A stretch of 64,000 bases of DNA from Escherichia coli (lineage in GTDB: Bacteria > Pseudomonadota > Gammaproteobacteria > Enterobacterales > Enterobacteriaceae). The notes under the pieces are model-generated. The model was given only the letters and a program-made list of their open reading frames with translations. It ran no database searches and was not told where the DNA came from. Below are positions 4,707 to 20,806 of this stretch, piece after piece (position 1 is the first letter of the stretch; each line of letters opens with the position of its first letter). The position numbers and the translations under genes are program-made. The stretch lies in NCBI RefSeq assembly GCF_036507355.1, contig NZ_AP027877.1; one strand, written 5' to 3'.

Positions 4707-5837
4707 CTACAGTTTCATGATCTTGTTCGCTATTTTTTCGAAGTAAACCTCATTCTTAAGAAGAGTGATATTGTTAGTTTGAACACCCAGACCACTGGAG
4801 GTTGACTGGAAGTTGAGTGAACCACTTATCACGGTGGACTTTCCTGATAAAAATGAAATCAACTCCTTGGAAGATGGTGCCCACTCAGGGTTTAAGAGTA
4901 ATGCAATGTAGATATATGTCTTACGAAGCAATTGTTCGATATCTTTTTTATACCCCGTAGTGTTTTGCTTACCTTTAATGCAAATTGATTTGATTATGAA
5001 CTCATCAGGGCTGGTTAAAGGCGTTTTAAACTTATTCAGTGATCCATCGTTATGAATGACTTCATAAGGCAGCATAGATAAAATGATCAATGCAATCATT
5101 TTAGGATGATAAAGGTAGTTATCACGAATGATTTTTCCTGCCTTCATTGTATTGAGTGTTGTTTGAATAAATACAAAAAGATATTCAGAGCAAAAGTAAC
5201 AAAACACAAGCCAGGATAGGTCAATGGCTGGAATGTTAATATCCTTAGGTAGTTTGTTTAGCCAGTATTCAGACTTCAAAAAGGTCCTGATTTCAACAGT
5301 ATATTCATGCATTTTTGCGCTGAAATCAAGCATTGCTACTTGACCTGATTGTTCCGTAACTGTGTGGTCTATAAATGTTAGTGTATTGCACATTTTATCC
5401 AGCGTGTTTTGAAAACAAGAAAGGAGTTCGGCATTATTATTACCATTAACCGCAGATGAAAGTTCAGTTGCAATAAATGCATCCAGTAGCATACAGATTT
5501 TTTTCGGAATGACATTTTTACGGGATTGCTGTGAATAGAAATATACTGCCAGTAAATTAAAGGCAGTGCACTCCTTTTTTAACCATTGTTCGAGCACTGG
5601 GACGTGCTGAAAAAAATTGATATGCTTAGCAGTAGATGCTGATGGAGATAGTACATGAAGAATATCTACAGCAGGCTTCATTTGCAATATTTGATCGGAT
5701 TCGGTAGTCGTCATTAGTTCCAGTAATTGCTGTTCAGAAAATAGTTTAGACAGGTGATCAATGTCTTTTTGGTATTGGTTAAGTTTTTTTAAATTCCCCG
5801 GTACACGGGTTACATTGTTTTTCATTTTCTCGAACAT
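4707..5837 (-). CDS. Hypothetical protein (376 aa), AT-rich orphan with hydrophobic segments
   Basis: Long intact ORF with a good SD (GAGGA, 7 nt before the ATG). No recognisable catalytic motif. Hydrophobic stretches include IDLSWLVFCYFCSEYLFVFIQTTL and MIALIILSMLPYEVI. Confidence 0.6.
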   Translation of the reverse strand: MFEKMKNNVTRVPGNLKKLNQYQKDIDHLSKLFSEQQLLELMTTTESDQILQMKPAVDILHVLSPSASTAKHINFFQHVPVLEQWLKKECTAFNLLAVYFYSQQSRKNVIPKKICMLLDAFIATELSSAVNGNNNAELLSCFQNTLDKMCNTLTFIDHTVTEQSGQVAMLDFSAKMHEYTVEIRTFLKSEYWLNKLPKDINIPAIDLSWLVFCYFCSEYLFVFIQTTLNTMKAGKIIRDNYLYHPKMIALIILSMLPYEVIHNDGSLNKFKTPLTSPDEFIIKSICIKGKQNTTGYKKDIEQLLRKTYIYIALLLNPEWAPSSKELISFLSGKSTVISGSLNFQSTSSGLGVQTNNITLLKNEVYFEKIANKIMKL

Positions 5838-6239: not shown

Positions 6240-7475
6240 TTAAAAGGAAATAAACAGAGCCTTTCGCCGATGAATCAATGTGCTGATTTCCCTCAAATCA
6301 GCCTCAATACTACCAACATCACCAAAGACTTCACCTCTAATCTCACTTCGATTTTTCATGAAATTGGTGCTTAATAAGCTTTCTTTTTTTAATGCCATTA
6401 ATTTTGGTTTTATATCGTTATAGAAATGCTTACGGCTTACCCTGATGCTATGAATCGAGTAGTAAACTGTTTTATACATCAAAAATATAAGTAACTGGCC
6501 GAGAAGATATTCTTTTTCAATGTATTTATATTGAGAGGATTTTTCGCGTTTCGCCAGGTAGAAAACATGAGGTGCGATGATGGTGGGGATAAAATCCAGT
6601 GCTGGAGAGGTTTTGGTTTTTTCTGTTTCTCTTCCGGATTGAAGATGTTGAAGTACAGAGTATACAATGCTTAAAATTATGGCGTTACTTATATTATTAA
6701 TTGCAGTTGGGTAAATATGCAGATTGCTTATCAATTCTGAAAGGCAAAGTAAAACACCAGTGATGTTGGGTTTTCTGCCGGAGATTGTGGTGCTGTTGAA
6801 AATGTGACGATTCTTACGACTTATATTGACAAGTTTATGAGTGCAGAACTCTATATGTTCGACGATTTTATCTTGACTATTTTTAATGTATTTTGAAATG
6901 TTAGTGATCCGGCCATTCAACGTTAGTTCATCAAGCAATATATCATTTTTAATATTGCGAATTTCATCGCAATGTTCACATTGAGAAACTATCTCATGTA
7001 ATACATAACTCGAAGTATTGCGTGACGATGCTGATATGTAATCTAAAATGGAATGCTCGACTTTGATTTTTTGTTTGTATTTTTTAATGCACTGTTTGAT
7101 TGTTTTTTGTAGAGTATTTGAGATGTGTTTTTTATATTCTTTTAGAAAATCTTGCTCTAAAAAGAGTGAGGAGAAGATCAACTGCTGGCGAGATAATTTA
7201 ATCTCAGGCTTGATCAATTTAATCCGAAAAACTCTTCCCTCCAACTCATAGCTGAACATGGAAGATAAGTCATAGTGGGGTGATAAATGTTCGAGTAACG
7301 ACATTCGTGTATTCATTAGCCGCTTGAATTTATGGTCAGCATACATAAGTGTTTTTTTTATTTGCTCATCATAAAGTGGGCCGATAGCGCAGTTGGCAAT
7401 ACTCATTCTATCCGGAGACCTCCAGTCAGCAGGGGAATCACATTGACGGTCATCATTACTATCAAAGGGCATCAA
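6240..7475 (-). CDS. Hypothetical protein (411 aa), AT-rich orphan with Lys-rich helical N-half and hydrophobic C-half
   Basis: Long intact ORF transcribed divergently from hsdM. Segments GVLLCLSELISNL, AIILSIVYSVL, FIPTIIAPHVFYL and LLGQLLIFLMY look membrane-associated. Start is 7475 or 7472 (tandem ATG), with a weak SD. Confidence 0.55.
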   Translation of the reverse strand: MMPFDSNDDRQCDSPADWRSPDRMSIANCAIGPLYDEQIKKTLMYADHKFKRLMNTRMSLLEHLSPHYDLSSMFSYELEGRVFRIKLIKPEIKLSRQQLIFSSLFLEQDFLKEYKKHISNTLQKTIKQCIKKYKQKIKVEHSILDYISASSRNTSSYVLHEIVSQCEHCDEIRNIKNDILLDELTLNGRITNISKYIKNSQDKIVEHIEFCTHKLVNISRKNRHIFNSTTISGRKPNITGVLLCLSELISNLHIYPTAINNISNAIILSIVYSVLQHLQSGRETEKTKTSPALDFIPTIIAPHVFYLAKREKSSQYKYIEKEYLLGQLLIFLMYKTVYYSIHSIRVSRKHFYNDIKPKLMALKKESLLSTNFMKNRSEIRGEVFGDVGSIEADLREISTLIHRRKALFISF

Positions 7476-7778: not shown

Positions 7779-9302
7779 ATGAACGACAAAATCAGTCAGG
7801 ACACGATCAACAAAGCCCTGTGGGCCGCGTGTGATACGTTCCGTGGCACCATCAGTGCTGATACCTATAAAGACTTTATCCTTACCATGCTGTTCCTCAA
7901 GTACATTTCAGATGTCTGGCAGGATCACTACGACGAATATAAAGTGCAATATGGCGATGCGCCGGAACTGATTGAAGCGATGATGGCGAACGAGCGCTTC
8001 GTGTTGCCGAAAAGCGCCAGTTTCTATGCGTTGTACGAGCGACGTCATGAGCCGGGCAACGGTGAGCGTATCGATCAGGCGCTGCATGCGATTGAAGAAG
8101 CCAACGGCACCAAACTGAAAGATGCCGGGAAAAGTGTCTTCCAGGATATTTCGTTTAACACTGACCGTCTGGGCGAAGAAAAACAGAAGAACACCATCCT
8201 GCGTCAGTTGCTGGAAGACTTTGCCGGTGAAGATCTTAACCTGAAGCCAAGCCGTGTCGGTACGCTGGACGTTATCGGTAATGCTTACGAATATCTGATC
8301 AAAAACTTTGCTGCCAGCGGTGGGCAGAAAGCCGGGGAATTCTATACCCCGCCGGAAGTTTCGGACCTGATTGCTGAACTGCTCGATCCGCAACCGGGTG
8401 ATACCATCTGCGATCCGGCCTGTGGTTCGGGTTCATTGTTGATGAAGTGTGGGCGTAAAATTGTCTCCGGGCATGATAGTCGTAACTATGCATTGTTCGG
8501 TCAGGAAGCGATCGGTTCTACGTGGTCGCTGGCGAAAATGAATATGTTCCTGCACGGGGAAGACAACCATAAAATCGAGTGGGGCGATACCATTCGTAAC
8601 CCGAAGCTGCTCGATAAAAATGGCGACCTGATGCTGTTTGATATCGTGACCGCTAACCCACCGTTCAGCCTCGATAAGTGGGGCCATGACGAGGCCGAGA
8701 ACGATAAGTTTGGCCGTTTTCGTCGCGGTGTACCGCCGAAGACTAAAGGAGATTACGCTTTTATCTCGCATATGATCGAAACCCTGAAACCGGGAACTGG
8801 CCGTATGGGCGTAGTTGTGCCACACGGTGTGCTTTTCCGTGGCTCCAGCGAAGGTAAAATTCGCCAGAAACTGATCGACGAAAATTTGCTGGATGCGGTA
8901 ATTGGTCTGCCGGAAAAACTGTTCTACGGTACGGGGATTCCGGCTGCGATTCTGATTTTTAAAAAGCAGAAAGTTGATGACAAGGTGCTGTTTATCGATG
9001 CCAGCCGTGAATTCAAGGCAGGTAAAAACCAGAACCAGCTTAGCGAAGAAAACATTAAGAAAATCGTCAAGACCTACCGTGATGGCGATAACGTCGAGAA
9101 ATACGCCTATCTTGCCAGCCTGAAGGAAATTCAGGACAACGACTATAATCTCAATATCCCGCGCTATGTCGATACCTTTGAAGAAGAGGATGAGATTGAC
9201 CTGCTGGCGGTGCGAGCAGAACGCGAGCAACTGAAGGCGGAATTGGCGAAGCTGGAAACGGAGATGGCTGGATATTTGAAGGAGTTGGGTTATGGCTCGT
9301 GA
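7779..9302 (+). CDS. hsdM: Type I restriction-modification system, DNA methyltransferase subunit HsdM
   Basis: N6-adenine methylase motifs: DPACGSGSLL (AdoMet binding) and VTANPPFS (NPPF catalytic). The HsdM N-terminal domain pattern (LWAACDTFRG) is present. hsdS overlaps the 3' end by 11 nt. Confidence 0.95.
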   Translation: MNDKISQDTINKALWAACDTFRGTISADTYKDFILTMLFLKYISDVWQDHYDEYKVQYGDAPELIEAMMANERFVLPKSASFYALYERRHEPGNGERIDQALHAIEEANGTKLKDAGKSVFQDISFNTDRLGEEKQKNTILRQLLEDFAGEDLNLKPSRVGTLDVIGNAYEYLIKNFAASGGQKAGEFYTPPEVSDLIAELLDPQPGDTICDPACGSGSLLMKCGRKIVSGHDSRNYALFGQEAIGSTWSLAKMNMFLHGEDNHKIEWGDTIRNPKLLDKNGDLMLFDIVTANPPFSLDKWGHDEAENDKFGRFRRGVPPKTKGDYAFISHMIETLKPGTGRMGVVVPHGVLFRGSSEGKIRQKLIDENLLDAVIGLPEKLFYGTGIPAAILIFKKQKVDDKVLFIDASREFKAGKNQNQLSEENIKKIVKTYRDGDNVEKYAYLASLKEIQDNDYNLNIPRYVDTFEEEDEIDLLAVRAEREQLKAELAKLETEMAGYLKELGYGS

Positions 9303-10566
9303 TTCGCTTTACCCAGTGAGCGTTAAAGCTGGAAAACCGATCCTTGGAATGCTACCTACAGGATGGCAAAAGTTATCATTAGAAAAGTGCTTAAATATAG
9401 AGGCAAGAAAGGCATATATACAAGATAATCAAGAGTATGACTTAGTTACAGTAAAGCGCTCCAGAGGTGGCGTAATAAGACGTGAGCATCTTAAAGGAAA
9501 AGATATCTCCGTAAAAAGTCAATTCTATATTAAAGAAGGCGACTTTCTCATATCAAAACGACAAATTGTGCACGGTGCTTGCGGTCTTGTACCTAAAGAA
9601 CTTTCTGGCTCAATTGTATCGAATGAATATTGTGTGCTTACAGGGAAGTCCGGTTTTTATCTTCCTTATATGGAATTTCTATCGGAGTCTCTATATTTCC
9701 AGCAAACCTGCTTCCACTCTAGCATTGGTGTGCACATAGAGAAAATGATTTTTAAGTTAGATAGTTGGTTTAAGTGGCCATTTAATATCCCCCCACTGTC
9801 TGAACAAAAGAGAATCGTTAAAATCCTGTCAACCTGGGATAAGGCGATTTCGGTGACGGAAAAGCTTCTCACCAACAGTCAGCAGCAGAAAAAAGCCCTG
9901 ATGCAGCAATTGCTTACCGGGAAAAAACGCTTGCTGGATGAGAGGGGGGTGAGGTTTAGTGGGGAGTGGAAGAGAGTAAAACTGGGTGCGATAGCCGATA
10001 TGAACAGTGGAGGTACTCCGAAATCAACGGTTGAAGAGTATTATGGCGGGAATATCCCATGGGTATCTATTTCTGATATGACATCTAATGGAAAGTGGAT
10101 TGCTACAACTGAAAAATATCTGACTGAATTAGGATTGAACAGTTCATCCGCAAGAATATATCCAAAAAACTCGGTTCTTTATGCTATGTATGCTTCTATA
10201 GGTGAATGCAGCATTGCTGCTGTAAATTTAACATCTTCGCAGGCAATCTTGGGTATTAGACCAAAAGATTGTTTAAATTATGAGTTTTTATATTTCTATC
10301 TTACATCATTAAAAGAAAAAATAAAACTGCAAGGCCAGCAAGGTACACAGTCCAACCTAAACGCCGGAATGGTTAAAGAGTTTGAACTAGACTTACCCAG
10401 TATAAGAGAACAACAAAAAATCGCCGCCGTCCTGTCCGTCGCCGATGCCGAAATCTCCACGCTGGAGAAAAAACTCGCCTGCCTGAGAGATGAGAAAAAA
10501 GCCCTGATGCAACAGCTACTGACTGGCAAACGTCGTGTTAAGGTCGATGAGGCGGTTGCCGAATGA
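9292..10566 (+). CDS. hsdS: Type I R-M specificity subunit HsdS (two target-recognition domains)
   Basis: Two AT-rich variable halves are separated and followed by conserved helical repeats: QQKKALMQQLLTGKKRL and DEKKALMQQLLTGKRRV. Position is between hsdM and hsdR. Confidence 0.9.
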   Translation: MARDSLYPVSVKAGKPILGMLPTGWQKLSLEKCLNIEARKAYIQDNQEYDLVTVKRSRGGVIRREHLKGKDISVKSQFYIKEGDFLISKRQIVHGACGLVPKELSGSIVSNEYCVLTGKSGFYLPYMEFLSESLYFQQTCFHSSIGVHIEKMIFKLDSWFKWPFNIPPLSEQKRIVKILSTWDKAISVTEKLLTNSQQQKKALMQQLLTGKKRLLDERGVRFSGEWKRVKLGAIADMNSGGTPKSTVEEYYGGNIPWVSISDMTSNGKWIATTEKYLTELGLNSSSARIYPKNSVLYAMYASIGECSIAAVNLTSSQAILGIRPKDCLNYEFLYFYLTSLKEKIKLQGQQGTQSNLNAGMVKEFELDLPSIREQQKIAAVLSVADAEISTLEKKLACLRDEKKALMQQLLTGKRRVKVDEAVAE

Positions 10567-11246
10567 AACTGACGAAAAGCGGTCCACTGACTGACCGGGA
10601 AATCGACTGGCTGGAAGAAATATTAATGAAGTATGGAATGGATGATTCTGTACTCTGTTTCTCTGAGCTGGATGGATTGCTGACGGCGATTTTATCAGGT
10701 CCAAATATGGTTTCACCCAATATCTGGCTGAGTGCTATTTGGGGAGGAGGCGATTATCATCCGAAATGGTCATCTGAGAGAGAGATGGAGCGTTTTGTCA
10801 GTCTGTGTTTTCAGCATATGAACGATATCGCTGGTTGCCTTTATGACGCCCCTGAACTGTTTGAGCCGATTTTCAATGAGCGTGAGGTAAAGGGGGAAAA
10901 ATATACCATTGTGGAAGAGTGGTGTTTTGGTTATATGAAAGGAAAGTCACTGGATGACTGGTCTGGTCTTCCCGGTGAGTTACGGCCTTCTCTGGAAGTG
11001 ATCGCTCTTCATGGCGTGGAGAAGAATTTTCCTGTACTTGAGAAAATGACCAGAGAGCAGTTTGAGAAAAGTATTTCCCTTATTAAGCCTGCTGCACTGG
11101 CACTTTATCAGTACTGGTTGTCAGTGAGAATGTCAGAGGCATCATCCCGGCCTGTTCCAGTGAAGGGGGCAGAAAACATGCCCGGGCGAAATGACCCGTG
11201 TCCGTGTGGCAGCGGTAAAAAATTTAAGAAGTGCTGTCTGCATTGA
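10563..11246 (+). CDS. YecA-like (UPF0149) protein with C-terminal SEC-C metal-binding motif, embedded in the type I R-M operon
   Basis: Collinear with chromosomal YecA (20141-20806) along its whole length, with roughly half the residues identical by eye. The C-terminus [20 protein letters not shown] is a SEC-C zinc/iron-binding motif. Its ATG overlaps the hsdS stop (ATGA). Confidence 0.85.
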   Translation: MKLTKSGPLTDREIDWLEEILMKYGMDDSVLCFSELDGLLTAILSGPNMVSPNIWLSAIWGGGDYHPKWSSEREMERFVSLCFQHMNDIAGCLYDAPELFEPIFNEREVKGEKYTIVEEWCFGYMKGKSLDDWSGLPGELRPSLEVIALHGVEKNFPVLEKMTREQFEKSISLIKPAALALYQYWLSVRMSEASSRPVPVKGAENMPGRNDPCPCGSGKKFKKCCLH

Positions 11247-11295: not shown

Positions 11296-14200
11296 ATGAT
11301 GAACCAGACGTACACGCCTAAATTCCAGGAAGAATACAGCGCCAAAATTCCGGCACTGACGTTACTGACCAGCCTCGGCTGGACGTTTTTATCTCCGAAA
11401 CAGATTATGGATTACCGGGGCTATAAACAGGATGAGGTGGTGCTGCGTCCGGTTCTGCGTGAAGAGCTGTCGAAGCGTTCCTTTATGGCGGGTGGCAAAA
11501 CCTGCCAGTTATCGGAAAAAGCACTGGATAACCTGATATCACAGGTCTGTTCTCCGGCGCTGAATGAAGGGCTGCTCAAAGCCAATGAACGGATGTATAA
11601 CCATCTGCTCTACGGTATCGCCGTCACGGAGTTTGTCGATGGCAAGAAGGTGAACCCCACCATTGCGCTGATCGACTGGGAACATCCGGAAAGTAACCAG
11701 TTCCATTTTACCGAAGAATTTACGGTATTGCGGTCAGGCGGTGTCGAAACCCGCAGGCCGGATATTGTGTGTTTTGTGAATGGTATCCCGCTGGCCGTCA
11801 TTGAAGCGAAAAGCCCGGCGGGTCACGGCAAGAAAGGGCCAACCATTGACGAAGGGATATCCCAGAGTATCCGCAATCAGCTCAACGACGAAATCCCGCA
11901 GCTGTTTGCTTACAGCCAGATATTACTGTCGATTAACGGGCATGACGGGCGCTACGGTACCTGTCATACACCAATGAAATTCTGGGCGGCATGGCGCGAA
12001 GAAGATATTACTTACGCGCAGATGTATGCGCTGCGCAACCATAAGTTATCGACTGAACAAATTCATGCGTTGTTTGATGATCGTCCTTCAGTCGATCTCA
12101 AATGGTATCAACAGTTAATCGATGGGGGGGAACTGGCAGTCAGCGGGCAGGATAAGCTGCTCATCAGTCTGCTTTCACCGGAACGTCTGCTGGAGATGAC
12201 CCGCTTCTTCACCCTGTTTGATAAAAAAACCGGAAAAATTGTTGCCCGCTATCAGCAGGTGTTCGGTATTAAAAGACTGCTGGAACGCATCAGTACCCGC
12301 AGACCAGACGGGGGCAGGGAAGGTGGGGTGATCTGGCATACCACGGGGTCAGGTAAATCTTACACCATGGTATTCCTCAGCAAGGCGCTGATTCTTCATG
12401 ACAGCCTGAAGCAGTGTCGTATTGTGGTGGTGACGGACCGCGTGGACCTTGAAGGGCAGCTCAGCGGCACTTTTGTCTCTGGTGGCGAACTGGCAGGGAA
12501 GGATGATAAGGCCAAAGCGATGGCAACCTCAGGTCAGAAGCTGGCACAGCAGATTGGCTCTGGTAAAGAACGTATAATCTTTACCCTTATCCAGAAATTT
12601 AACTCAGCGACAAAATTGCCTGAATGCGTCAACACCAGCCCCGACATCATCGTTCTGATTGATGAAGGACACCGTAGCCAGGGTGGTGAGAACCATGTGC
12701 GAATGAAACTGGCACTGCCGAACGCCGCCTTTGTGGCATTTACTGGTACGCCATTGCTAAAAGAAGATAAGACCACCAATAAATTCGGGCCGATTGTCCA
12801 CGCTTATACCATGCAGCGAGCGGTAGAAGATAAAGCCGTTACACCTTTGCTGTATGAAGAACGTATTCCCGACCTTGAGGTTAACGATCGGGCAATAGAT
12901 GCCTGGTTTGATCGTATTACCGATGGGTTAAGCGAAGCGCAAAAAGCCGACCTTAAGCGTAAATATGCCCGTAAAGGTGAGGTTTATAGTGCAGATGATC
13001 GCATCCGTCTGATCGCACTCGATATCGCCACGCACTTCTCGAAGAATATTGATGAGGGGCTGAAAGGCCAGCTTGCCTGCGACAGCAAGATTTCCGCCAT
13101 CAAATATAAAAAGTATCTTGATGAAGCCGGGTTGTTTGAGTCAGCAGTAGTTATCAGCCCGCCGGATACCCGGGAAGGGAATACCGAAGTGGATGAAAGC
13201 AAACTGCCGGAAGTGACGAAATGGTGGAAGGATAATGTCGGCACGCAGGATGAGTCTGTGTATACCCGTAATATCATCAGTCGTTTCGATACCGATGAGA
13301 AGCTCAAATTGCTGATAGTCGTTGATAAACTGCTCACCGGGTTTGATGAGCCGAAGAATACCGTGCTGTATATCGACAAGCCGCTTAAGTCCCACAACCT
13401 TATCCAGGCGATTGCGCGGGTGAACCGACTGCATCCACTAAAAAAGTTCGGTCTGCTGATTGATTATCGCGGTATTCTGGCTGAGCTGGACACGACTATC
13501 GGCAAATATCAGGACCTCGCCTCCCGAACTCAGGGCGGATACGATATCAAAGATATTGACGGGCTGTACAGCGCCATGAGCTCTGAATACAAGCGCCTGC
13601 CGCATCTGTATAACCAGCTGTGGGCCATATTTGCCGGTGTTAAAAACAAAAATGATACTGAGCAGTTACGTGCGGTACTGGTGCCTAAAATGGAAGAACG
13701 TGACGGAGAGATGGTCGATATCCATCAGAAAACCCGTGATGATTTCTTCGAGGCGTTAACGGCCTTTGCCGGATGCCTGAAAGTGGCACTGCAGTCCGCT
13801 ACCTTCTTCACCGACAAGAGCTTTACGGAACAAGACCGAAATCTCTATAAAGAAACCGTAAAACAGATGTCCAGCCTGCGCCAGTGGGCGATGCAGGTAA
13901 GTGGAGAGCAGGTCAATTATGACGACTACGCTGAGCAGGTGAAAAAACTGCTGGATAAGCATGTCACCGGCGTTGAGGTTCGTGAACCGGATGGCGTGTA
14001 TGAAGTCGGTAAAATGGGCAAGAGCGAAAAGCCCGAAGAGTGGGACAACAATAAAACCCGCAATGAAACCGACATCATTAAAACCCGCGTGACGAAGATG
14101 ATTGAGCAGGAATTGCGTGATGACCCGTATGCTCAGGAGGCATTTTCAAAACTCCTGCGTATGGCTATCGAAGAGGCTGAAAAACTGTTTGACCATCCGC

Positions 14201-14583
14201 TGAAACAGTACCTTTTGTTCCGTGAATTTGAAGAACAGGTTGAAGCCCGTAAGCTCAGCGATATCCCGGATGCACTGGCGGTAAACAAGCATGCTCAGGC
14301 GTATTACGGTGTATTTAAAAAAGAGCTACCTGAGGTTTTTGCGGTAAACGACGTTCAGGTGCAGGATAAGTGGACCAAGCTGGCTTTTGAAGTGGACAAC
14401 ATTATCGTCAAAGCGGTGGCAGAAAACTCCCTGAACCCCCAGGACATTGAGAAAGTCGTTAAGACAAGTCTGCTACCACTGCTGTTTACGGCCTGCCGGG
14501 AAATTGGTGCCGGAATGAATCAGGTTAACCGTATTGTGGAAACCATCATCCAGATACTGCGCGTTGGTTTGATGAAATCATGA
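11296..14583 (+). CDS. hsdR: Type I R-M restriction/translocase subunit HsdR (1095 aa)
   Basis: N-terminal PD-(D/E)xK nuclease motif (RPDIVCFVNGIPLAVIEAKSP). SF2 helicase motif I is TTGSGKSYT and motif II is VLIDEGHRSQ. Operon context with hsdM/hsdS. Confidence 0.95.
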   Translation: MMNQTYTPKFQEEYSAKIPALTLLTSLGWTFLSPKQIMDYRGYKQDEVVLRPVLREELSKRSFMAGGKTCQLSEKALDNLISQVCSPALNEGLLKANERMYNHLLYGIAVTEFVDGKKVNPTIALIDWEHPESNQFHFTEEFTVLRSGGVETRRPDIVCFVNGIPLAVIEAKSPAGHGKKGPTIDEGISQSIRNQLNDEIPQLFAYSQILLSINGHDGRYGTCHTPMKFWAAWREEDITYAQMYALRNHKLSTEQIHALFDDRPSVDLKWYQQLIDGGELAVSGQDKLLISLLSPERLLEMTRFFTLFDKKTGKIVARYQQVFGIKRLLERISTRRPDGGREGGVIWHTTGSGKSYTMVFLSKALILHDSLKQCRIVVVTDRVDLEGQLSGTFVSGGELAGKDDKAKAMATSGQKLAQQIGSGKERIIFTLIQKFNSATKLPECVNTSPDIIVLIDEGHRSQGGENHVRMKLALPNAAFVAFTGTPLLKEDKTTNKFGPIVHAYTMQRAVEDKAVTPLLYEERIPDLEVNDRAIDAWFDRITDGLSEAQKADLKRKYARKGEVYSADDRIRLIALDIATHFSKNIDEGLKGQLACDSKISAIKYKKYLDEAGLFESAVVISPPDTREGNTEVDESKLPEVTKWWKDNVGTQDESVYTRNIISRFDTDEKLKLLIVVDKLLTGFDEPKNTVLYIDKPLKSHNLIQAIARVNRLHPLKKFGLLIDYRGILAELDTTIGKYQDLASRTQGGYDIKDIDGLYSAMSSEYKRLPHLYNQLWAIFAGVKNKNDTEQLRAVLVPKMEERDGEMVDIHQKTRDDFFEALTAFAGCLKVALQSATFFTDKSFTEQDRNLYKETVKQMSSLRQWAMQVSGEQVNYDDYAEQVKKLLDKHVTGVEVREPDGVYEVGKMGKSEKPEEWDNNKTRNETDIIKTRVTKMIEQELRDDPYAQEAFSKLLRMAIEEAEKLFDHPLKQYLLFREFEEQVEARKLSDIPDALAVNKHAQAYYGVFKKELPEVFAVNDVQVQDKWTKLAFEVDNIIVKAVAENSLNPQDIEKVVKTSLLPLLFTACREIGAGMNQVNRIVETIIQILRVGLMKS

Positions 14584-15335
14584 GTGAAAAAGAATCGCCA
14601 TCAATGAAAGCGTTACGCATTGTCTATGGTGATGATGTCATCACCGTACAGTGTGTTCCGCGTCAGGTCGTAAAGGGCAGGGTGCTCATCAAGGTTTATC
14701 CGGACTGCCGGGTTGTGGCCTCTGTACCGCCTGAAACACCGGAGCACGAGGTATTGTCTGCGCTGAAAAAAAGAGGGCGCTGGATATACCAGCAACTGCG
14801 TGATTTCAGGGAGCAACAGACACACATTGTTCCGCGTCAGTATGTCAGCGGAGAAAGCCATTATTATCTCGGTAAGCAATATCAGTTGAAAGTGACAGAA
14901 GACGCTACTGTGCCGCAACGAGTGAAAATGTTGCGTGGGCGTCTGGAAGTGACTGTCAGACACAAATCGGCAGAAAAGATTAAAGCCTTGCTGGCTGAAT
15001 GGTATCGGGAACGTGCCAGAGATGTTTTTCAGCGCAGGCTTGATTTACTGATTCCGCAGACCCTTTGGGTCAGTGAGCGTCCTCCGATACGTCTGCGGGC
15101 GATGCAAACGCAATGGGGCAACTGTTCAGCAAAAGGCTGTCTGACCCTGAATCCATGGCTGGTTAAGGCATCCTCAGAATGTATCGATTATGTTTTGCTA
15201 CATGAGTTATGCCATGTGGCTGAGCACAACCACAGCGAGGAGTTTTACCGTCTGATGGGGCAGGTTATGCCTGGGTGGGAAAAGGTCAAGAAACGACTGG
15301 ATGGGATGGCTGGGATGTTGTTGGCTGATATGTAA
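14580..15335 (+). CDS. M48/DUF45 (YgjP-like) zinc metallopeptidase coupled to hsdR
   Basis: HExxH motif in YVLLHELCHVAEHNHSEEFY, followed by a WxxxK tail typical of DUF45. The ATG overlaps the hsdR stop (ATGA). Confidence 0.85.
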   Translation: MSEKESPSMKALRIVYGDDVITVQCVPRQVVKGRVLIKVYPDCRVVASVPPETPEHEVLSALKKRGRWIYQQLRDFREQQTHIVPRQYVSGESHYYLGKQYQLKVTEDATVPQRVKMLRGRLEVTVRHKSAEKIKALLAEWYRERARDVFQRRLDLLIPQTLWVSERPPIRLRAMQTQWGNCSAKGCLTLNPWLVKASSECIDYVLLHELCHVAEHNHSEEFYRLMGQVMPGWEKVKKRLDGMAGMLLADM

Positions 15336-15393
15336 CTTATCAATATGAGTTCTTAAGGGTTTGGTCAGTCTCGTTAATGTAGGGAGTATAATA

Positions 15394-17232
15394 ATGAGTA
15401 AGTTAGATAATAAAATTGAAGCACGCCATCGTAATTTGTTTGATGTTCTAAATGCGCAAAAATATACCGTTGATTACTTTCAGCGCGAGTATAGCTGGGG
15501 TGAGAAACATATTGAAGAGTTGGTTACAGACTTAACATCTGCGTTTCTCAATGAATACACCGTCGGTGATTCTCGGGAGCAGGGTGAAAACTACAATAAT
15601 TATTACTTAGGACCATTTGTTGTGAGTAGTAAAGATGGGAAACGGAGTATTATTGATGGTCAGCAACGACTGACTTCATTAACTTTATTTCTAATTTACC
15701 TCCATAACCTTCAGAAAGAACTTAAATATGAAGAGAAAATAGAATCAATGATTTTCTCCGAGTTACGTGGCAGCAAATCATTCAATATAGTAGTTGAAGA
15801 CAGAATACCTTGCATGGAAGCATTGTTTAATTTTGGTAGCTATAGTTTAGTTGATGGGGATGATGAGTCAACCCATAACATGGTGGAGAGATATCAGAAT
15901 ATCACAGATGCTTTTCCTGATGAATTAAAAGGTCAGGCTTTTCCTTTTTTTATCGACTGGCTTAAGTATAACGTTATTATGGTTGAGATAGTTGCCTATT
16001 CAGATGAAAACGCATATACCATCTTTGAGACTATGAATGACCGAGGATTAAATCTTACTCCGTCCGAAATGCTTAAAGGTTTTTTACTTTCACGCTTTCA
16101 TCAGGGAGATAAACGCCAAAAGGTAAATGAACTCTGGAAAAAAGCGATGATGGATTTAAAAAACTATGATAAAGATGAAGACCAACGTTTTTTCCAGTCA
16201 TGGTTGCGTGCTCAATATGCTGATACAATACGCCCGGGTAAAGCTGGTTCAAAAAATGAAGACTTTGAAAAAATAGGTACGCGTTTTCATAGCTGGGTTA
16301 GAGATAATCTTCAGGCGGTGGGATTGGACCCAGATAATGGTGAGACATTCGAACGATTTATACAAAAAAACTTTTTGTTTTATTTGAATGCCTATACACA
16401 AATACTGAATGCTGAGAGAGCATTAACGCACCAACTGGAATATGTATTTTATATCCACCATTGGGGTATTGCACCTACTTTAAGTTTCCCTTTGATGTTG
16501 GCTCCATTAAATGTAGGTGACAGTCCTGATGCTGTGATAGCCAAAATAAACCTGGTGGCGCGCTATATTGAAACATTTGTTGTTCGTCGTTCTGTTAATT
16601 TCCGAAAATTCTCTGCCAGTTCTATTCGTTACACAATGTACAGTCTTGTTAAAGAAATTCGTGGTAAAAGTATTGAAGAATTAAAAGATTTGTTATCTAA
16701 GAAGTTATCCGAAATGCCAGATACTTTTGCAGGAATGGAAGAGTTTCGTCTCCATGGTCAAAACTATCGTTTTGTGAAGTTTTTGCTTTCTCGTATAACT
16801 GCGTGGGTTGAGCAGCAAGCCGGAATGAGTACAACCTTCATTACATATTATCAGCCAGAACACGGTAAGCCATTTGAAGTCGAGCATATTTGGGCCGATA
16901 AATATGAACGTTACTCTGATGAGTTTGAACAAGAGCACGAATTTAACAATTACAGAAATCGCTTAGGTGATTTGGTTTTATTACCTAGAGGCTCAAACCA
17001 GTCATATGGTGATTTGTGTTACGATCAAAAGCAACCTCATTACATCAAAGAGAATCTCCTGGCTAAATCGTTATGCCCATTGGCATATATGAATAACCCT
17101 AATTTCAATCAGTTGAGAAATGTATTCGGATTGCCTTTCAAACCACATGATTCATTTAAAAAACAAGATGTCGATGAACGACAGTCTTTGTATAAAATAA
17201 TTTGTGAGAATATTTGGGACCATAATTTATAG
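15394..17232 (+). CDS. DUF262/DUF1524 two-domain nuclease, GmrSD-like type IV restriction enzyme
   Basis: The N-terminal DUF262 signature IIDGQQRLTSL is present. The C-terminal His-Me finger-like part reads FEVEHIWADK ... NRLGDLVLLPRGSNQSYGD. I chose ATG 15394 (SD AGGGAG 8 nt upstream) over the TTG at 15361 used in the ORF track. Confidence 0.85.
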   Translation: MSKLDNKIEARHRNLFDVLNAQKYTVDYFQREYSWGEKHIEELVTDLTSAFLNEYTVGDSREQGENYNNYYLGPFVVSSKDGKRSIIDGQQRLTSLTLFLIYLHNLQKELKYEEKIESMIFSELRGSKSFNIVVEDRIPCMEALFNFGSYSLVDGDDESTHNMVERYQNITDAFPDELKGQAFPFFIDWLKYNVIMVEIVAYSDENAYTIFETMNDRGLNLTPSEMLKGFLLSRFHQGDKRQKVNELWKKAMMDLKNYDKDEDQRFFQSWLRAQYADTIRPGKAGSKNEDFEKIGTRFHSWVRDNLQAVGLDPDNGETFERFIQKNFLFYLNAYTQILNAERALTHQLEYVFYIHHWGIAPTLSFPLMLAPLNVGDSPDAVIAKINLVARYIETFVVRRSVNFRKFSASSIRYTMYSLVKEIRGKSIEELKDLLSKKLSEMPDTFAGMEEFRLHGQNYRFVKFLLSRITAWVEQQAGMSTTFITYYQPEHGKPFEVEHIWADKYERYSDEFEQEHEFNNYRNRLGDLVLLPRGSNQSYGDLCYDQKQPHYIKENLLAKSLCPLAYMNNPNFNQLRNVFGLPFKPHDSFKKQDVDERQSLYKIICENIWDHNL

Positions 17233-17290
17233 CAAAGTTAGGGTGTTAATTAATCTGTAATGGCATCATGATTTTTAAAAGGAGGTTGAA

Positions 17291-18418
17291 TTGCGTTCTG
17301 AAACGTTTTTTGTCAAATTTATTGAACAACTGAAAGGTATTTCGGTTGAGGATGATGTTGAATTCAATTTTTTTGAATTGGGTGGTTCCGGATATCTCGA
17401 AAATCCAACTACGGATTTGATGGCTTTGTTTATGGGAGCCCAGAAAATGGTGCCGCCATGGTTGCTCAAAGCATTGCTATGTTGCCTGGATGATTCCCTC
17501 GATGTTGATGAAATTGATTTCACTTCTCTGGAGCTAATGAGAGAGGCCCGAACAGAAGATGGGAAATATATTGATATTCTTATCAGACATGATGAATTCA
17601 TTATAGGTATTGAGCATAAAGTTCTGGCTGATACATATAATCCTTTTCCCAGCTATGTAAGTCTCATTGATAGTTACGGCGGCAACAATCAAAAACTATT
17701 TCGCTGTATATTAAAGCCTGACGGTAACAGCGCTAAAGGCGTAGACGGTTGGCAACTGATCAATTATTCACTGCTGCTGGAAACCGCCATTCGACGTCTG
17801 GGGTTGGAGATGATGAATCAAGAGTTCAGCAAGTGGACTGTTTTTTATCAGGAGTTTTTAAGTCATCTTAAAAAATTGAGTGAGGTTAGTATGGATAAGG
17901 TATCTGATAAAAATGTGGAGTTTGTCACTGAAAATTTCTCAGCTTTGATAAAATCGGTTCAACTGCTGGAAATGTACCAAAATGCTATCACCGAGGAAGC
18001 TAAATCGGTTGTCTCAGAGGTATTGCCTGATATTCATATTGCAACAGGTATTAATAACTGGAAGGGTTACTATAAAGCAATTCATCTGATGCCGGGATGC
18101 TGGGGGCAAGGTAAAACAGGAATTACGTTAGTTTATCGCCCTTCAGAGGATGGACGAGATGAAGCTGAGTTCTACGTATATGGATGGATACATTCAGATG
18201 ATTACCCTGAAGTTAATGCACTAAAAGAAGAAATAAGAGTTGCTTTAAGTGCTGGAGATTTCATTCCAACAGCTAGCCCTGAGGACTATGAAGTATCAAT
18301 TACTGGGAAGGGGAAAGTGCTTGAACTGAGTTTTTGGGGGAATACGAGAAGCAAAAAAGATGCACTGGTTCTTCTTAAGGATATGACTAAGTGGATGGAC
18401 TCAAAAATAAGAACATAA
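17291..18418 (+). CDS. PD-(D/E)xK nuclease superfamily protein (PDDEXK_4-like), 375 aa
   Basis: The N-terminal FNFFELGGSGYLENPTTDLMALF pattern is followed by EDGKYIDILIRHDEFIIGIEHKV (D ... E-x-K core). TTG start with a strong SD (AAGGAGG, 5 nt spacing). Confidence 0.65.
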   Translation: MRSETFFVKFIEQLKGISVEDDVEFNFFELGGSGYLENPTTDLMALFMGAQKMVPPWLLKALLCCLDDSLDVDEIDFTSLELMREARTEDGKYIDILIRHDEFIIGIEHKVLADTYNPFPSYVSLIDSYGGNNQKLFRCILKPDGNSAKGVDGWQLINYSLLLETAIRRLGLEMMNQEFSKWTVFYQEFLSHLKKLSEVSMDKVSDKNVEFVTENFSALIKSVQLLEMYQNAITEEAKSVVSEVLPDIHIATGINNWKGYYKAIHLMPGCWGQGKTGITLVYRPSEDGRDEAEFYVYGWIHSDDYPEVNALKEEIRVALSAGDFIPTASPEDYEVSITGKGKVLELSFWGNTRSKKDALVLLKDMTKWMDSKIRT

Positions 18419-18522
18419 AGTAATATGACTGAGTGATGACGATCTTTTTTAAATTGTGGATTATTAGGCTGGTAATTGAAGCGCCGAATAGACAGATATT
18501 GGAATAAAAGGAGAATATTCAA

Positions 18523-19704
18523 ATGATTTATCAGTGTGATACTTGCAGTAGAACGACTTTTGAGGTTAATTGTCCCTGGTGTAGTGGAGTTTCGCCTGTA
18601 AAAACGTCTGCATGGGGTTCAGCATCATCGACCGCACAAGCAATAGGCATACAACGTATGACACCATTGAATCCATCGTTTTATCCCGAATTTCAGTATC
18701 GTTCAAAGGGTGTTCTAAAAGATCTATTTGGGAAAAAGAAAGAGCAAACTCAGCTTAATCAATTGCTTGAAAATGTTCTCAAAAAATACTCCAGTTTAAA
18801 AGATCCATATTTTACTAACTTCATTTACACTTCCAGATTCTCACATAATAATAAATCGGAAGCAGATTACTCAACAGATAATGGTACATACTCCGAATTA
18901 CAACTTTTCCGTGAGGTGTTGGTCAGAAAAGGGTTCAATGAGCTTGAGCAGTTACCTGAGCTATTAGATAAATTACTCCTTACCACGTCATTTAACGCTC
19001 TTTATTATGGTTTCGCTAAGGAAGTTAAACGGCATATTAAATCCACACTTACTGAATCCTTGAAGTCATGGATTGAGGAAGCGGGTACCACTTTTAGGGC
19101 AGATCTTTCATTGTTTCTATTCTATATATGGAGCAATAAAATAGAGTTCTCATCAGTAGAGTTCAATGAAAAAGCGGAGGCTACGCCTGGTGTTCCTTTA
19201 GTTTCATTTGATGAAGTTAAAAAATACTTAGCTGTGTGCGAACATATTTATTTTGATATTCTGGTTGATAGATTAGCTACACGGCTCGAACATTTTAACC
19301 CTAACAAATTCGTCACCATGTATTTAGTTGATGCAATGGACGGTTTCCAGTTTGAAGATTTCCTTGTGGAAGTATTCCAGACTATGGGCTATGACGTCAA
19401 AGAAACCAAGAGAACGCAAGATCAGGGGGCAGATCTCTTCGTCACTCGATTTGGTAAGGATATGGTTATTCAGGCGAAAAATTATTCTGGTTCTGTAGGT
19501 AACTCGGCGGTGCAGCAGGTGATCTCTGCTAAAACATTCTATGGTTGTGATGAGGCGATGGTTGTGACTAATTCCTACTTCACACGCTCTGCCAAAGAAT
19601 TAGCTGAATCAGCCTTGGTACGTTTGATCGACAGGGATGAACTGCAAAAGTATCTGGATGATTACAATCAGAAGATAATTGAAGATTTCCAGTCAAACTC
19701 GTAA
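18523..19704 (+). CDS. Mrr-like restriction endonuclease with N-terminal zinc ribbon (393 aa)
   Basis: N-terminus has CDTC-x11-CPWC (4-Cys ribbon). The C-terminal Mrr_cat-type domain reads DGFQFEDFLVEVFQTMGYDV...QGADLFV...VIQAKNYSGSVG...VVTNSYFT. SD AAGGAG lies upstream. Confidence 0.8.
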   Translation: MIYQCDTCSRTTFEVNCPWCSGVSPVKTSAWGSASSTAQAIGIQRMTPLNPSFYPEFQYRSKGVLKDLFGKKKEQTQLNQLLENVLKKYSSLKDPYFTNFIYTSRFSHNNKSEADYSTDNGTYSELQLFREVLVRKGFNELEQLPELLDKLLLTTSFNALYYGFAKEVKRHIKSTLTESLKSWIEEAGTTFRADLSLFLFYIWSNKIEFSSVEFNEKAEATPGVPLVSFDEVKKYLAVCEHIYFDILVDRLATRLEHFNPNKFVTMYLVDAMDGFQFEDFLVEVFQTMGYDVKETKRTQDQGADLFVTRFGKDMVIQAKNYSGSVGNSAVQQVISAKTFYGCDEAMVVTNSYFTRSAKELAESALVRLIDRDELQKYLDDYNQKIIEDFQSNS

Positions 19705-20140: not shown

Positions 20141-20806
20141 ATGAAAACGGGACCGTTAAACGAAAGTGAGTTGGAATGGCTGGACGATATTCTGACCAAA
20201 TACAACACTGACCACGCCATCCTTGATGTGGCGGAGCTGGACGGTTTATTGACGGCGGTGTTGAGTTCTCCGCAAGAGATTGAACCGGCACAGTGGCTGG
20301 TTGCCGTGTGGGGTGGGGCTGACTATGTGCCGCGCTGGGCGTCAGAGAAAGAGATGACGCGCTTTATGAACCTGGCTTTTCAACATATGGCCGATACCGC
20401 AGAGCGTCTGAACGAATTCCCGGAGCAGTTTGAGCCGTTATTCGGCTTGCGAGAAGTTGATGGCAGCGAGCTGACGATTGTTGAGGAGTGGTGCTTTGGC
20501 TATATGCGGGGCGTGGCACTTTCTGACTGGTCAACATTGCCCGATTCGTTAAAACCAGCGCTGGAGGCGATAGCGCTGCACGGTACTGAGGAAAACTTCG
20601 AGCGGGTAGAGAAGATGTCGCCAGAAGCGTTTGAAGAGAGCGTAGATGCCATTCGACTGGCGGCGCTTGATCTACATGCGTACTGGATGGCGCATCCGCA
20701 GGAAAAAGCTGTTCAGCAACCGATCATAGCAGAAGAGAAACCGGGGCGTAACGATCCTTGCCCGTGCGGTAGTGGTAAGAAATTTAAGCAGTGCTGCCTG
20801 CATTAA
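20141..20806 (+). CDS. yecA: YecA, UPF0149 family protein with SEC-C metal-binding domain
   Basis: Translation matches recalled K-12 YecA ([21 protein letters not shown] ... [20 protein letters not shown]). Synteny next to leuZ and tyrP. Confidence 0.95.

What the first reader, a model, noticed from the sequence alone, without database searches (positions are those of the whole stretch)
10563..11246. YecA-like SEC-C metal-binding protein inserted between hsdS and hsdR of a type I R-M operon
Seen: a 227-aa ORF whose ATG overlaps the hsdS stop (ATGA) lies 49 bp upstream of hsdR. The operon therefore reads hsdM-hsdS-X-hsdR-M48 with 11-nt, 4-nt and 4-nt overlaps. X has the full UPF0149/YecA architecture and ends in [20 protein letters not shown], the SecA-type metal-binding domain. 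Established: the slot between type I R-M genes is a known landing site for auxiliary defence genes (for example the anticodon nuclease PrrC), and the SEC-C domain of SecA/YecA has been reported to bind metal and contact SecB or ribosomes. Inference: a YecA-type protein made in fixed ratio with R-M subunits could be a sensor or effector, or a regulator of restriction linked to translation or secretion status. I know of no description of that role.
Basis: partly seen in the sequence, partly recalled or inferred. Interest (0 to 1): 0.7.

Follow-up and report, generated by a model that had tools for sequence, protein, structure and literature searches.

The report
YecA chaperone paralogue inside R-M operon
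A second, diverged copy of the ribosome- and SecB-binding chaperone YecA is fixed directly behind hsdS in a mobile type I restriction-modification operon found in about 8% of complete E. coli genomes and hundreds of Klebsiella plasmids; it is already listed as an untested defence candidate (PADLOC PDC-S12), and nobody has shown what it does.

Summary
A 227-aa ORF (10563-11246) overlaps the hsdS stop (ATGA) and lies 49 nt upstream of hsdR, in an hsdM-hsdS-X-hsdR-M48 operon. X has a full UPF0149 domain and a SecA-type metal-binding domain, and it passes the NCBIfam YecA equivalog cut-off.

X is not the housekeeping gene. That copy (221 aa, 57% identical) sits 9 kb downstream, at the tRNA-Leu site where this pipolin island is integrated. 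X belongs to a monophyletic, Enterobacterales-restricted clade (73-100% identity). Every member examined sits immediately after hsdS with the ATGA junction kept. None of 71 housekeeping copies does.

The clade is under purifying selection (dN/dS about 0.1) and has lost about 15 net negative charges relative to housekeeping YecA. X is optional: nearly identical operons lack it, and some carry a copy without the metal-binding domain.

The embedding is already catalogued as PADLOC PDC-S12, untested, and that HMM scores housekeeping YecA higher than X.

My best reading (about 0.35) is a dedicated AscA-type chaperone or adaptor that tunes assembly or timing of the R-M complex. A PrrC-like or stand-alone defence role is not excluded.

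The parts
7779..9302 (+). hsdM, type I methyltransferase subunit (507 aa)
   Evidence: Pfam N6_Mtase 4e-107 and HsdM_N; TIGR00497 hsdM 283 bits
9292..10566 (+). hsdS, specificity subunit (424 aa; basic, pI 9.3, net charge +16)
   Evidence: Pfam Methylase_S, two stretches; PADLOC Specificity_I 1e-213; charge
10563..10566 (+). ATGA junction where the X start codon overlaps the hsdS stop (translational coupling)
   Evidence: Sequence; the same ATGA junction is present in 14/14 X-clade loci
10563..11246 (+). X, an R-M-embedded YecA/AscA paralogue (227 aa)
   Evidence: NF007704 357 bits; PADLOC PDC-S12 2.4e-99; 57% identical to housekeeping YecA; AF2 pLDDT 90.3
10605..11117 (+). UPF0149 (YecA/YgfB) helical domain of X, residues 15-185
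   Evidence: Pfam PF03695 1.8e-30; Foldseek hits 4gyt (prob 1.00) and 1izm YgfB (prob 0.99)
11187..11237 (+). SecA-like metal-binding domain (SEC-C motif, [13 protein letters not shown]), residues 209-225
   Evidence: Pfam PF02810 2.3e-10; PDB hits to YchJ-C and SecA metal-binding domain peptides
11296..14583 (+). hsdR, restriction/translocase subunit (1095 aa)
   Evidence: HSDR_N, SWI2_SNF2 and T1R_D3-like domains; TIGR00348 461 bits; only distantly related to EcoR124I HsdR
14580..15335 (+). YgjP-like M48/SprT-type metallopeptidase, overlapping the hsdR stop by 4 nt
   Evidence: Pfam YgjP-like 3e-58; present with hsdR whether or not X is present; the same companion gene occurs in the EPEC RptR-RM-DarTG2-M48 island
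20141..20806 (+). Housekeeping yecA (221 aa) next to tyrP; the paralogue used as comparator, not part of the operon
   Evidence: 57% identity to X; annotated yecA in the syntenic E. coli locus; net charge -22 against -7 for X

Best explanation
X is a paralogue of the holdase chaperone YecA (AscA) carried on mobile elements. It was captured once by one family of Enterobacterales type I R-M operons and has since been kept directly behind hsdS, translationally coupled to it. It is an optional accessory, not a core subunit and not an enzyme.

Proposed mechanism. The conserved SecA-type metal-binding domain places X on the ribosome, and possibly on SecB. The remodelled, much less acidic UPF0149 domain holds a newly made R-M subunit. 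The basic HsdS made just before X from the same mRNA is the most obvious client, and HsdR is the alternative. X would thereby tune how fast, or how much, restriction-proficient complex assembles. That would matter most when the operon arrives in a new, unmethylated host on a plasmid or pipolin.

Shown here: family membership, paralogy, clade-wide linkage and coupling, purifying selection, the charge shift, and dispensability.

Inferred: ribosome and SecB binding (by homology to E. coli YecA), the identity of the client, and the effect on assembly or timing.
For: Domain architecture and invariant family motifs, including the metal-binding domain, are retained. The model is confident, has a YgfB-like fold and no catalytic fold. 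Published data on the 57%-identical paralogue: the metal-binding domain binds SecB (Kd about 150 nM) and 70S ribosomes, and the protein prevented citrate synthase aggregation in vitro; its authors assign chaperone activity to the N-terminal domain.

X always directly follows hsdS with a conserved ATGA junction. Other cargo (a cold-shock-domain/Cys-rich protein, GmrSD) is inserted after X, never between hsdS and X. No X-clade member was seen outside an hsd context, and 0/71 housekeeping copies are R-M-linked.

dN/dS is 0.08-0.19 with dS up to more than 1. The clade-wide net charge is -3 to -8, against -13 to -25 for housekeeping copies; HsdS carries +16. X is present in 419/552 E. coli genomes and 348/377 plasmids that carry this hsdR family.
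Against: Operons with 97-98% identical HsdM and HsdR and intact ORFs lack X (C. amalonaticus L051, E. coli 3R, at least 51 E. coli genomes). A lineage carries X without its metal-binding domain in an otherwise intact operon. The enzyme therefore cannot depend on X.

In Providencia, X and GmrSD remain intact beside an IS-disrupted hsdS. The linkage has a single origin, so co-inheritance explains part of it. No interaction data exist, and no multimer prediction could be run. Most characterised genes in this slot are independent defence modules.
Confidence: 0.35

Rival explanations
1. X is a defence module in its own right. It could be stand-alone, as PADLOC's PDC-S12 label implies. Or it could be PrrC-like: held inactive by the R-M complex and released when a phage anti-restriction protein disables the complex. 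Released X would then block translation, nascent-chain maturation or Sec export through its ribosome- and SecB-binding domain.
For: X occupies the same slot as PrrC and DarTG2. Seven embedded candidate systems were confirmed as anti-phage in the guilt-by-embedding study. X is optional for the R-M enzyme. It persists with GmrSD beside a degraded hsdS in Providencia. The surface-charge remodelling suggests a new partner. The host already has housekeeping YecA, so X must add something.
Against: X has no nuclease, NTPase, toxin or pore domain. It has never been tested. The PDC-S12 HMM scores housekeeping YecA higher (365 against 330 bits), so that label carries no functional information. Tight translational coupling to hsdS is unusual for independent cargo.
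Confidence: 0.25
2. X is a hitch-hiking general chaperone. As a second YecA copy it benefits the mobile element or host in a generic way, or not at all. It stays behind hsdS only because of tight linkage to a locus under balancing selection.
For: The clade has a single origin. dS at X is higher than at hsdM or hsdR, as expected for a segment linked to hypervariable hsdS. X is dispensable.
Against: dN/dS is about 0.1 over saturating dS. The ATGA junction is kept in 14/14 loci. X survives repeated insertion and deletion of neighbouring cargo. Every clade member shows the directional charge shift. X is present in 76-92% of operons of this family.
Confidence: 0.15
3. X regulates transcription of the operon, acting as a functional analogue of type II C proteins. 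Like the UPF0149 proteins MtvS1 and YgfB, it would bind RNA polymerase, or like P. aeruginosa YgfB an antiterminator. hsdR expression would then follow hsdM/hsdS expression with a delay.
For: The UPF0149 proteins MtvS1 and E. coli YgfB bind RNAP (shown for MtvS1) and are needed for stationary-phase expression of CRISPR-Cas loci. YgfB acts against the antiterminator AlpA. X lies immediately upstream of hsdR.
Against: X is a YecA-type protein (57% identical to YecA, with the metal-binding domain), not a YgfB-type protein. It has no HTH. The promoter and terminator scans show no clear internal signal (12 promoter-like sites against 11 expected). X-less operons have hsdR 21-43 nt after hsdS with no apparent need for X.
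Confidence: 0.08
4. X targets or tethers the R-M complex to the Sec translocon and inner membrane through SecB and SecA, placing restriction where phage DNA enters the cell.
For: The SecB-binding residues of the metal-binding domain are conserved, and YecA binds SecB. From my own recollection, not checked here, older reports describe membrane association of type I enzymes.
Against: This is pure inference with no supporting data here. The lineage lacking the metal-binding domain keeps the operon intact.
Confidence: 0.05

Closest known systems
E. coli YecA (AscA), housekeeping UPF0149 + SecA-like metal-binding domain chaperone (bioRxiv 10.1101/2020.07.21.215244; 10.1101/613315)
   Same: Same two-domain architecture and all invariant motifs. 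57% identical. Passes the NCBIfam YecA equivalog model. Nearly identical metal-binding sequence.
   Different: X is a paralogue, not the orthologue; the orthologue is in the same window at 20141-20806. X sits in an R-M operon on mobile elements rather than next to tyrP. Its net charge is -7 (clade range -3 to -8) against about -21. It forms a separate clade with 100/100 bootstrap support.
PADLOC-DB PDC-S12, a phage defence candidate from 'guilt by embedding' (Payne et al., bioRxiv 10.1101/2024.01.29.577857)
   Same: Full-length HMM match (2.4e-99). Embedded in a type I R-M system, which is the criterion that defined the PDC candidates.
   Different: PDC-S12 is only a computational candidate with no reported test. 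Its HMM scores housekeeping YecA higher than X, so it does not separate the embedded clade from the housekeeping gene.
PrrC anticodon nuclease in the EcoprrI type I R-M locus
   Same: Same slot between hsdS and hsdR. Optional add-on to a type I system (for its near-exclusive embedding).
   Different: PrrC has ATPase and nuclease domains. X has no catalytic domain. Physical masking by the R-M enzyme is known for PrrC (established knowledge) and unknown for X.
EPEC RptR-HsdM-HsdS-DarTG2-HsdR-M48 island (PMC12255303)
   Same: Same operon layout, with cargo between hsdS and hsdR and an M48 peptidase after hsdR. That island is experimentally active against phages.
   Different: The cargo there is a toxin-antitoxin pair. 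An RptR repressor lies upstream there, and no such ORF precedes hsdM here.
YgfB / MtvS1, UPF0149 proteins that act on the transcription machinery (PMC13627669; PMC9998450)
   Same: Same fold family (Foldseek 1izm prob 0.99). They set a precedent for a UPF0149 protein controlling a defence system (CRISPR-Cas).
   Different: They lack the SecA-like metal-binding domain, are only distantly related to X in sequence, and are chromosomal stand-alone genes.
SecB-like chaperones of toxin-antitoxin-chaperone (TAC) systems (from my own knowledge: Bordes et al. 2011; not checked here)
   Same: A paralogue of a Sec-pathway chaperone recruited into a mobile addiction or defence operon as a dedicated partner.
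   Different: Different fold (SecB rather than UPF0149). The client there is an antitoxin. This is an analogy only.

Membership tests
YecA/AscA family (NCBIfam NF007704; UPF0149 + SEC-C) | N-terminal UPF0149 domain | tested here: met
   PF03695 E=1.8e-30, TIGR02292 6e-37. The AF2 model matches 4gyt and 1izm.
YecA/AscA family (NCBIfam NF007704; UPF0149 + SEC-C) | C-terminal SecA-like metal-binding domain, CxCx8C(C/H) with the conserved Ser | tested here: met
   [15 protein letters not shown]02810 2.3e-10. PDB hits to SecA and YchJ metal-binding peptides.
YecA/AscA family (NCBIfam NF007704; UPF0149 + SEC-C) | Score above the curated equivalog cut-off | tested here: met
   357 bits against a cut-off of 149.
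YecA/AscA family (NCBIfam NF007704; UPF0149 + SEC-C) | Orthology: conserved chromosomal position next to tyrP | tested here: not met
   That position holds a separate 221-aa yecA in the same window. X is 57% identical and forms its own clade. X is a paralogue.
YecA/AscA family (NCBIfam NF007704; UPF0149 + SEC-C) | Binding of SecB and ribosomes through the metal-binding domain; holdase activity | not testable with these tools
   Shown only for E. coli YecA. The binding-surface residues are conserved in X.
PADLOC PDC-S12 (phage defence candidate) | Match to HMM PDLC04917 | tested here: met
   2.4e-99, full length. Housekeeping YecA scores higher, 3e-110.
PADLOC PDC-S12 (phage defence candidate) | Embedded within a BREX, DISARM or type I R-M system | tested here: met
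   Lies between hsdS and hsdR.
PADLOC PDC-S12 (phage defence candidate) | Anti-phage activity | not testable with these tools
   No experimental test was found in the literature searched.
PrrC-type R-M-guarded abortive-infection effectors | Gene located between hsdS and hsdR | tested here: met
PrrC-type R-M-guarded abortive-infection effectors | Catalytic effector domain (nuclease or NTPase) | tested here: not met
   Only UPF0149 and SEC-C are detected. The fold search finds only YgfB-like structures.
PrrC-type R-M-guarded abortive-infection effectors | Physical masking by the R-M complex and activation by a phage anti-restriction factor | not testable with these tools
   Requires biochemistry or multimer modelling.
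YgfB/MtvS1 RNAP-associated regulators | UPF0149 fold | tested here: met
   1izm prob 0.99, TM 0.66 normalised to the target.
YgfB/MtvS1 RNAP-associated regulators | Residues that contact the beta-prime coiled-coil; RNAP binding | not tested
R-M controller proteins (C proteins, RptR) | Helix-turn-helix DNA-binding domain | tested here: not met
   X has no HTH family hit. There is no small regulator ORF upstream of hsdM.

The most novel reading that the evidence does not exclude
X is a non-enzymatic functional partner of the type I enzyme that couples restriction to the translation and secretion machinery. One version is a PrrC-style guard that is released when phage anti-restriction proteins disable the complex and then shuts down ribosomes or Sec export. 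The other is the first dedicated 'establishment timer' for a type I system, a chaperone that delays HsdR assembly in a naive host. Either would be a new mode of R-M control and a new job for the YecA family.
Probability: 0.25. Interest if true: 0.8.

Novelty: new variant of a known kind. Interest (0 to 1): 0.5.

Why it matters
Control of type I R-M systems after horizontal transfer is understood for only a few families (from my own knowledge: ClpXP-dependent alleviation and HsdR assembly control). The family here has no solved structure of its own; the nearest solved HsdR is EcoR124I, distantly related. It is very common on clinically important Klebsiella plasmids and E. coli pipolins.

A dedicated paralogue of a ribosome- and SecB-binding chaperone, fixed behind hsdS, gives a simple genetic handle. 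Natural operons with and without X, and with X lacking its metal-binding domain, already exist. They can be used to ask whether chaperones tune restriction, or whether a non-enzymatic protein can act as a defence module.

There is also a practical point. PADLOC's PDC-S12 model hits housekeeping yecA at least as strongly as the embedded copy, so PDC-S12 counts in genome surveys are probably inflated by a housekeeping gene.

Tried and rejected
(1) Recent capture of the neighbouring chromosomal yecA. Rejected: X is only 55-60% identical to every Enterobacterales YecA and branches at the base of that radiation. The proximity follows from the pipolin's tRNA-Leu integration site between pgsA and yecA.

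(2) Independent captures in other taxa. The distant (25-33%) plasmid-borne YecA-family genes of Xanthomonas, Pseudomonas and Burkholderia are not next to hsd genes, so they give no support.

(3) Phage-borne copies. The IMG/VR scan gave five loci, four of them with 52-57%-identical (housekeeping-level) copies. This was uninformative.

(4) An internal promoter or terminator explaining conservation of X. The promoter scan is at background, 12 found against 11.1 expected; the terminator-like excess (15 against 7.2) was not followed up.

(5) An RptR-like regulator upstream of hsdM. None was found.

(6) The supplementary tables of the embedding paper, searched for the PDC-S12 definition. The stored text is truncated and the entry is not present.

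(7) Co-purification data for AscA, searched for Hsd proteins. The supplements are not held.

(8) Alignment of the junctions of operons with and without X gave no clean insertion scar.

(9) A fused-chain AlphaFold run to mimic a multimer was considered and not run.
Full report
**Observation.** The ORF map confirms the finding exactly.
- hsdM is 7779-9302 and hsdS is 9292-10566, an 11-nt overlap.
- X is 10563-11246 (227 aa). Its ATG overlaps the hsdS TGA as ATGA.
- A 49-nt spacer separates X from hsdR (11296-14583).
- A YgjP-like M48 peptidase gene (14580-15335) overlaps hsdR by 4 nt.

Pfam, NCBIfam and PADLOC identify the four flanking genes as HsdM, HsdS, HsdR and a YgjP/M48 peptidase. X matches UPF0149 (E=1.8e-30) and SEC-C (E=2.3e-10). 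It scores 357 bits on the NCBIfam YecA equivalog model, whose cut-off is 149. Its C-terminus aligns with solved SecA and YchJ metal-binding peptides.

**What X is.** An AlphaFold2 model built on a 49-sequence alignment is confident (mean pLDDT 90.3, pTM 0.80). It shows a helical domain with one beta hairpin, a disordered linker and the small metal-binding knuckle. Foldseek against the PDB finds only the two solved UPF0149 proteins: Legionella lpg0076 (4gyt, prob 1.00) and H. influenzae YgfB (1izm, prob 0.99). Nothing enzymatic appears.

**Genomic setting.** The window is E. coli chromosome. The best match (98.7% over the whole operon) is strain RM14721. There the operon lies in a pipolin-type island (piPolB polymerase, tyrosine recombinases, DUF2787) integrated at the glyW-cysT-leuZ tRNA cluster. 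The first chromosomal gene after the island is the housekeeping yecA, followed by tyrP. In the window these are 20141-20806 and 20868-22079. The pipolin literature names this site 'tRNA-Leu between pgsA and yecA'. The window therefore holds two YecA genes 9 kb apart, and that proximity is an accident of the integration site.

**Paralogy.**
- X is 57% identical to the housekeeping copy.
- In the 5.8-billion-protein search the hits split cleanly. One group is 73-99% identical to X. After a gap, housekeeping YecA proteins of Enterobacterales follow at 60% or below.
- In a neighbour-joining tree the X group is monophyletic in 100/100 bootstraps and branches at the base of the Enterobacterales YecA radiation. 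X is therefore an old paralogue, not a recent copy of the neighbouring gene.
- All invariant family positions are retained: [18 protein letters not shown] and GRNDPCxCGSGKK.
- Surface charge has changed. Net charge is -3 to -8 in all 11 X-clade sequences, against -13 to -25 (mean -21) in 73 housekeeping sequences, with no overlap. The roughly 16 charge-raising substitutions are spread over the N-terminal domain and include Q223K in the metal-binding domain.
- HsdS, translated just upstream of X, is strongly basic (+16, pI 9.3).

**Linkage survey.**
- *Species level.* A scan of one genome per GTDB species returned 9 X-clade loci: Franconibacter, a Klebsiella michiganensis plasmid, Intestinirhabdus, Enterobacter, Buttiauxella, Pseudescherichia, an Enterobacterales MAG, Morganella and Citrobacter freundii. 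It also returned 71 housekeeping loci. All 9 X-clade genes sit immediately after hsdS. None of the 71 housekeeping genes does, although two lie within 10 kb of an R-M island at the same integration site.
- *Further contexts.* Loci fetched through exact-protein look-ups agree.
- *Junction.* The ATGA hsdS/X junction is present in 14/14 loci.
- *Complete E. coli genomes.* X DNA is in 419 of 5426 and the hsdR family in 552. A direct hsdS-hsdR junction without X covers at least 80% of the probe in 51. One of these, strain 3R, has four intact annotated genes with hsdR starting 21 nt after hsdS.
- *Plasmids.* X is in 348 records and the hsdR family in 377. Almost all are conjugative Klebsiella plasmids, so these counts are highly clonal.
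- *Slot contents.* The slot is a cargo hotspot. Most copies in the 80-90%-identity class, which is about half of the E. coli copies, have an uncharacterised protein of about 595 aa (cold-shock-like domain plus a Cys-rich region) between X and hsdR. In Morganella and Providencia a GmrSD (HEC-06-like) enzyme follows X. In every case X keeps its place directly after hsdS.
- *Dispensability.* X-less operons have 97-98% identical HsdM and HsdR. One lineage carries a 182-aa X without the metal-binding domain in an otherwise intact operon.
- *Decay.* In Providencia, X and GmrSD are intact beside an hsdS remnant cut by an IS element.

**Selection.** Within the X clade dN/dS is 0.08-0.19 while dS reaches 0.8 to more than 2. 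Against the same loci, omega is about 0.02 for hsdM and about 0.05 for hsdR. dS at X is roughly twice that of the flanking enzyme genes in the closest group. So X is a constrained protein, but evolves 5-10 times faster at the amino-acid level than the enzyme subunits. It belongs to the older, recombining hsdS-proximal segment of the operon.

**What is already known.**
- PADLOC-DB contains X as PDC-S12 (2.4e-99, full length).
- The PDC set comes from Payne et al. (bioRxiv 2024). They collected genes embedded in BREX, DISARM and type I R-M loci and kept 145 untested candidates. The seven systems they confirmed were Hma-embedded candidates, not PDCs.
- The PDC-S12 HMM scores the housekeeping YecA of this window higher (365 bits) than X (330 bits). 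This fits the paper's method of building models from all RefSeq homologues in a cluster. PDC-S12 hits therefore do not separate the embedded clade from a housekeeping gene.
- Only four papers in the library mention PDC-S12, and the three listed by the search are genome or pipolin surveys. No paper links YecA to restriction.
- For housekeeping YecA, two preprints report that the metal-binding domain binds iron or zinc, SecB (Kd about 150 nM) and 70S ribosomes. [quoted passage not shown]
- Other UPF0149 proteins act through protein-protein contacts with the transcription machinery. P. aeruginosa YgfB counteracts the antiterminator AlpA. Francisella MtvS1 binds RNAP, and MtvS1 and E. coli YgfB are needed for stationary-phase CRISPR-Cas expression.
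- The EPEC RptR-HsdM-HsdS-DarTG2-HsdR-M48 island has the same layout, with other cargo in the slot, and is experimentally active against phages.

**Interpretation.** The data establish five points.
- X is a functional protein under selection.
- It is a specialised paralogue of a ribosome- and SecB-binding chaperone.
- Its link to hsdS is clade-wide and involves translational coupling.
- It has a single origin.
- The R-M enzyme does not need it.

I favour a dedicated chaperone or adaptor (confidence 0.35). In this model X uses the conserved metal-binding domain to sit at the ribosome. Its remodelled N-terminal domain holds a nascent R-M subunit, with basic HsdS the most obvious client, and so tunes assembly or timing of restriction after transfer. 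Only the homology-based parts of this model are supported; the client and the effect are inferred.

The main rival (0.25) is that X is cargo like its neighbours, either a stand-alone defence gene or a PrrC-style guarded effector acting on ribosomes or Sec. Dispensability and the precedents for this slot support that view. The absence of any catalytic domain and the tight coupling to hsdS argue against it. The other readings are hitch-hiking (0.15), an RNAP-linked regulator (0.08) and membrane targeting (0.05).

**Novelty and score.** The family, the annotation and the fact of embedding are all on record, so the observation itself is not new. What is new here:
- separation of the embedded clade from housekeeping YecA;
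- its strict position directly after hsdS;
- the clade-wide charge shift;
- the natural variants without X or without the metal-binding domain;
- the weakness of the PDC-S12 model.

I rate it a new variant of a known kind, with interest 0.5. It is common, clinically widespread, easy to test and mechanistically open, but no evidence for a striking mechanism exists yet.

Noticed in passing
window 20141-20806 (+): Housekeeping yecA lies 9 kb from its R-M-embedded paralogue because the pipolin integrates at tRNA-Leu next to yecA. PADLOC's PDC-S12 HMM scores this housekeeping gene higher (365 bits) than the embedded one (330 bits), so PDC-S12 calls in genome surveys are probably mostly housekeeping yecA.
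   Followed up: yes
L002 10704-12491 (+); also L003-L007, L098 3801-5585: A protein of about 595 aa occupies the slot between X and hsdR in most copies of the 80-90%-identity class, about half of the E. coli copies. It has a sub-threshold cold-shock-domain match at the N-terminus and a Cys-rich (zinc-finger-like) C-terminal region. It has no PADLOC hit and no Pfam hit above threshold. It is an uncharacterised embedded candidate in its own right.
   Followed up: partly
window 15361-19704 (+): Three further defence-type genes follow the operon: a GmrSD/DUF262 enzyme (PADLOC HEC-06/Orf5-like, 15361-17232), a PDDEXK_4 nuclease (PDC-S26, 17291-18418) and an Mrr-type restriction endonuclease (18523-19704). 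All are low-GC (36-39%) pipolin cargo.
   Followed up: partly
window 4707-5837 (-) and 6240-7475 (-): Two large AT-rich ORFs (376 and 411 aa; regional GC about 35%) lie between the integrase and hsdM. They have no Pfam match and are annotated 'hypothetical' in the syntenic E. coli locus.
   Followed up: no
L090-L093 (Providencia), X at 9001-9684 of L090-L092 (4971-5654 of L093): X and a GmrSD gene remain intact next to a 60-87-aa hsdS remnant cut by IS elements, beside a split EcoR124-like hsdR. X outlives its R-M operon in this lineage.
   Followed up: partly
L096 8001-8549: A 182-aa X variant lacking the SEC-C metal-binding domain sits in an otherwise intact hsdM-hsdS-X-hsdR-YgjP operon, seen on 6 contigs. 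It is a natural truncation mutant that could be used experimentally.
   Followed up: partly
L002/L003 X, C-terminus: X from L002 and L003, two loci that carry the cold-shock-domain gene after X, has CQC instead of CPC in the metal-binding motif (GRNDPCQCGSG). The cysteines are kept.
   Followed up: no
L082-L084 (Xanthomonas, Pseudomonas syringae and Burkholderia plasmids): Distant (25-30% identical) YecA-family genes are common on plant-pathogen plasmids (113 Xanthomonas records) and are not R-M-linked. In P. syringae the gene precedes a HipA-family kinase and a DUF3037 gene.
   Followed up: partly
L094 1808-5824 and L096 146-4797: In CP4-57-like islands of Citrobacter-type genomes, the X-bearing R-M operon sits directly next to two ArdB/KlcA-type anti-restriction genes (PF03230), RadC and a CbtA/CbeA toxin-antitoxin pair.
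   Followed up: no
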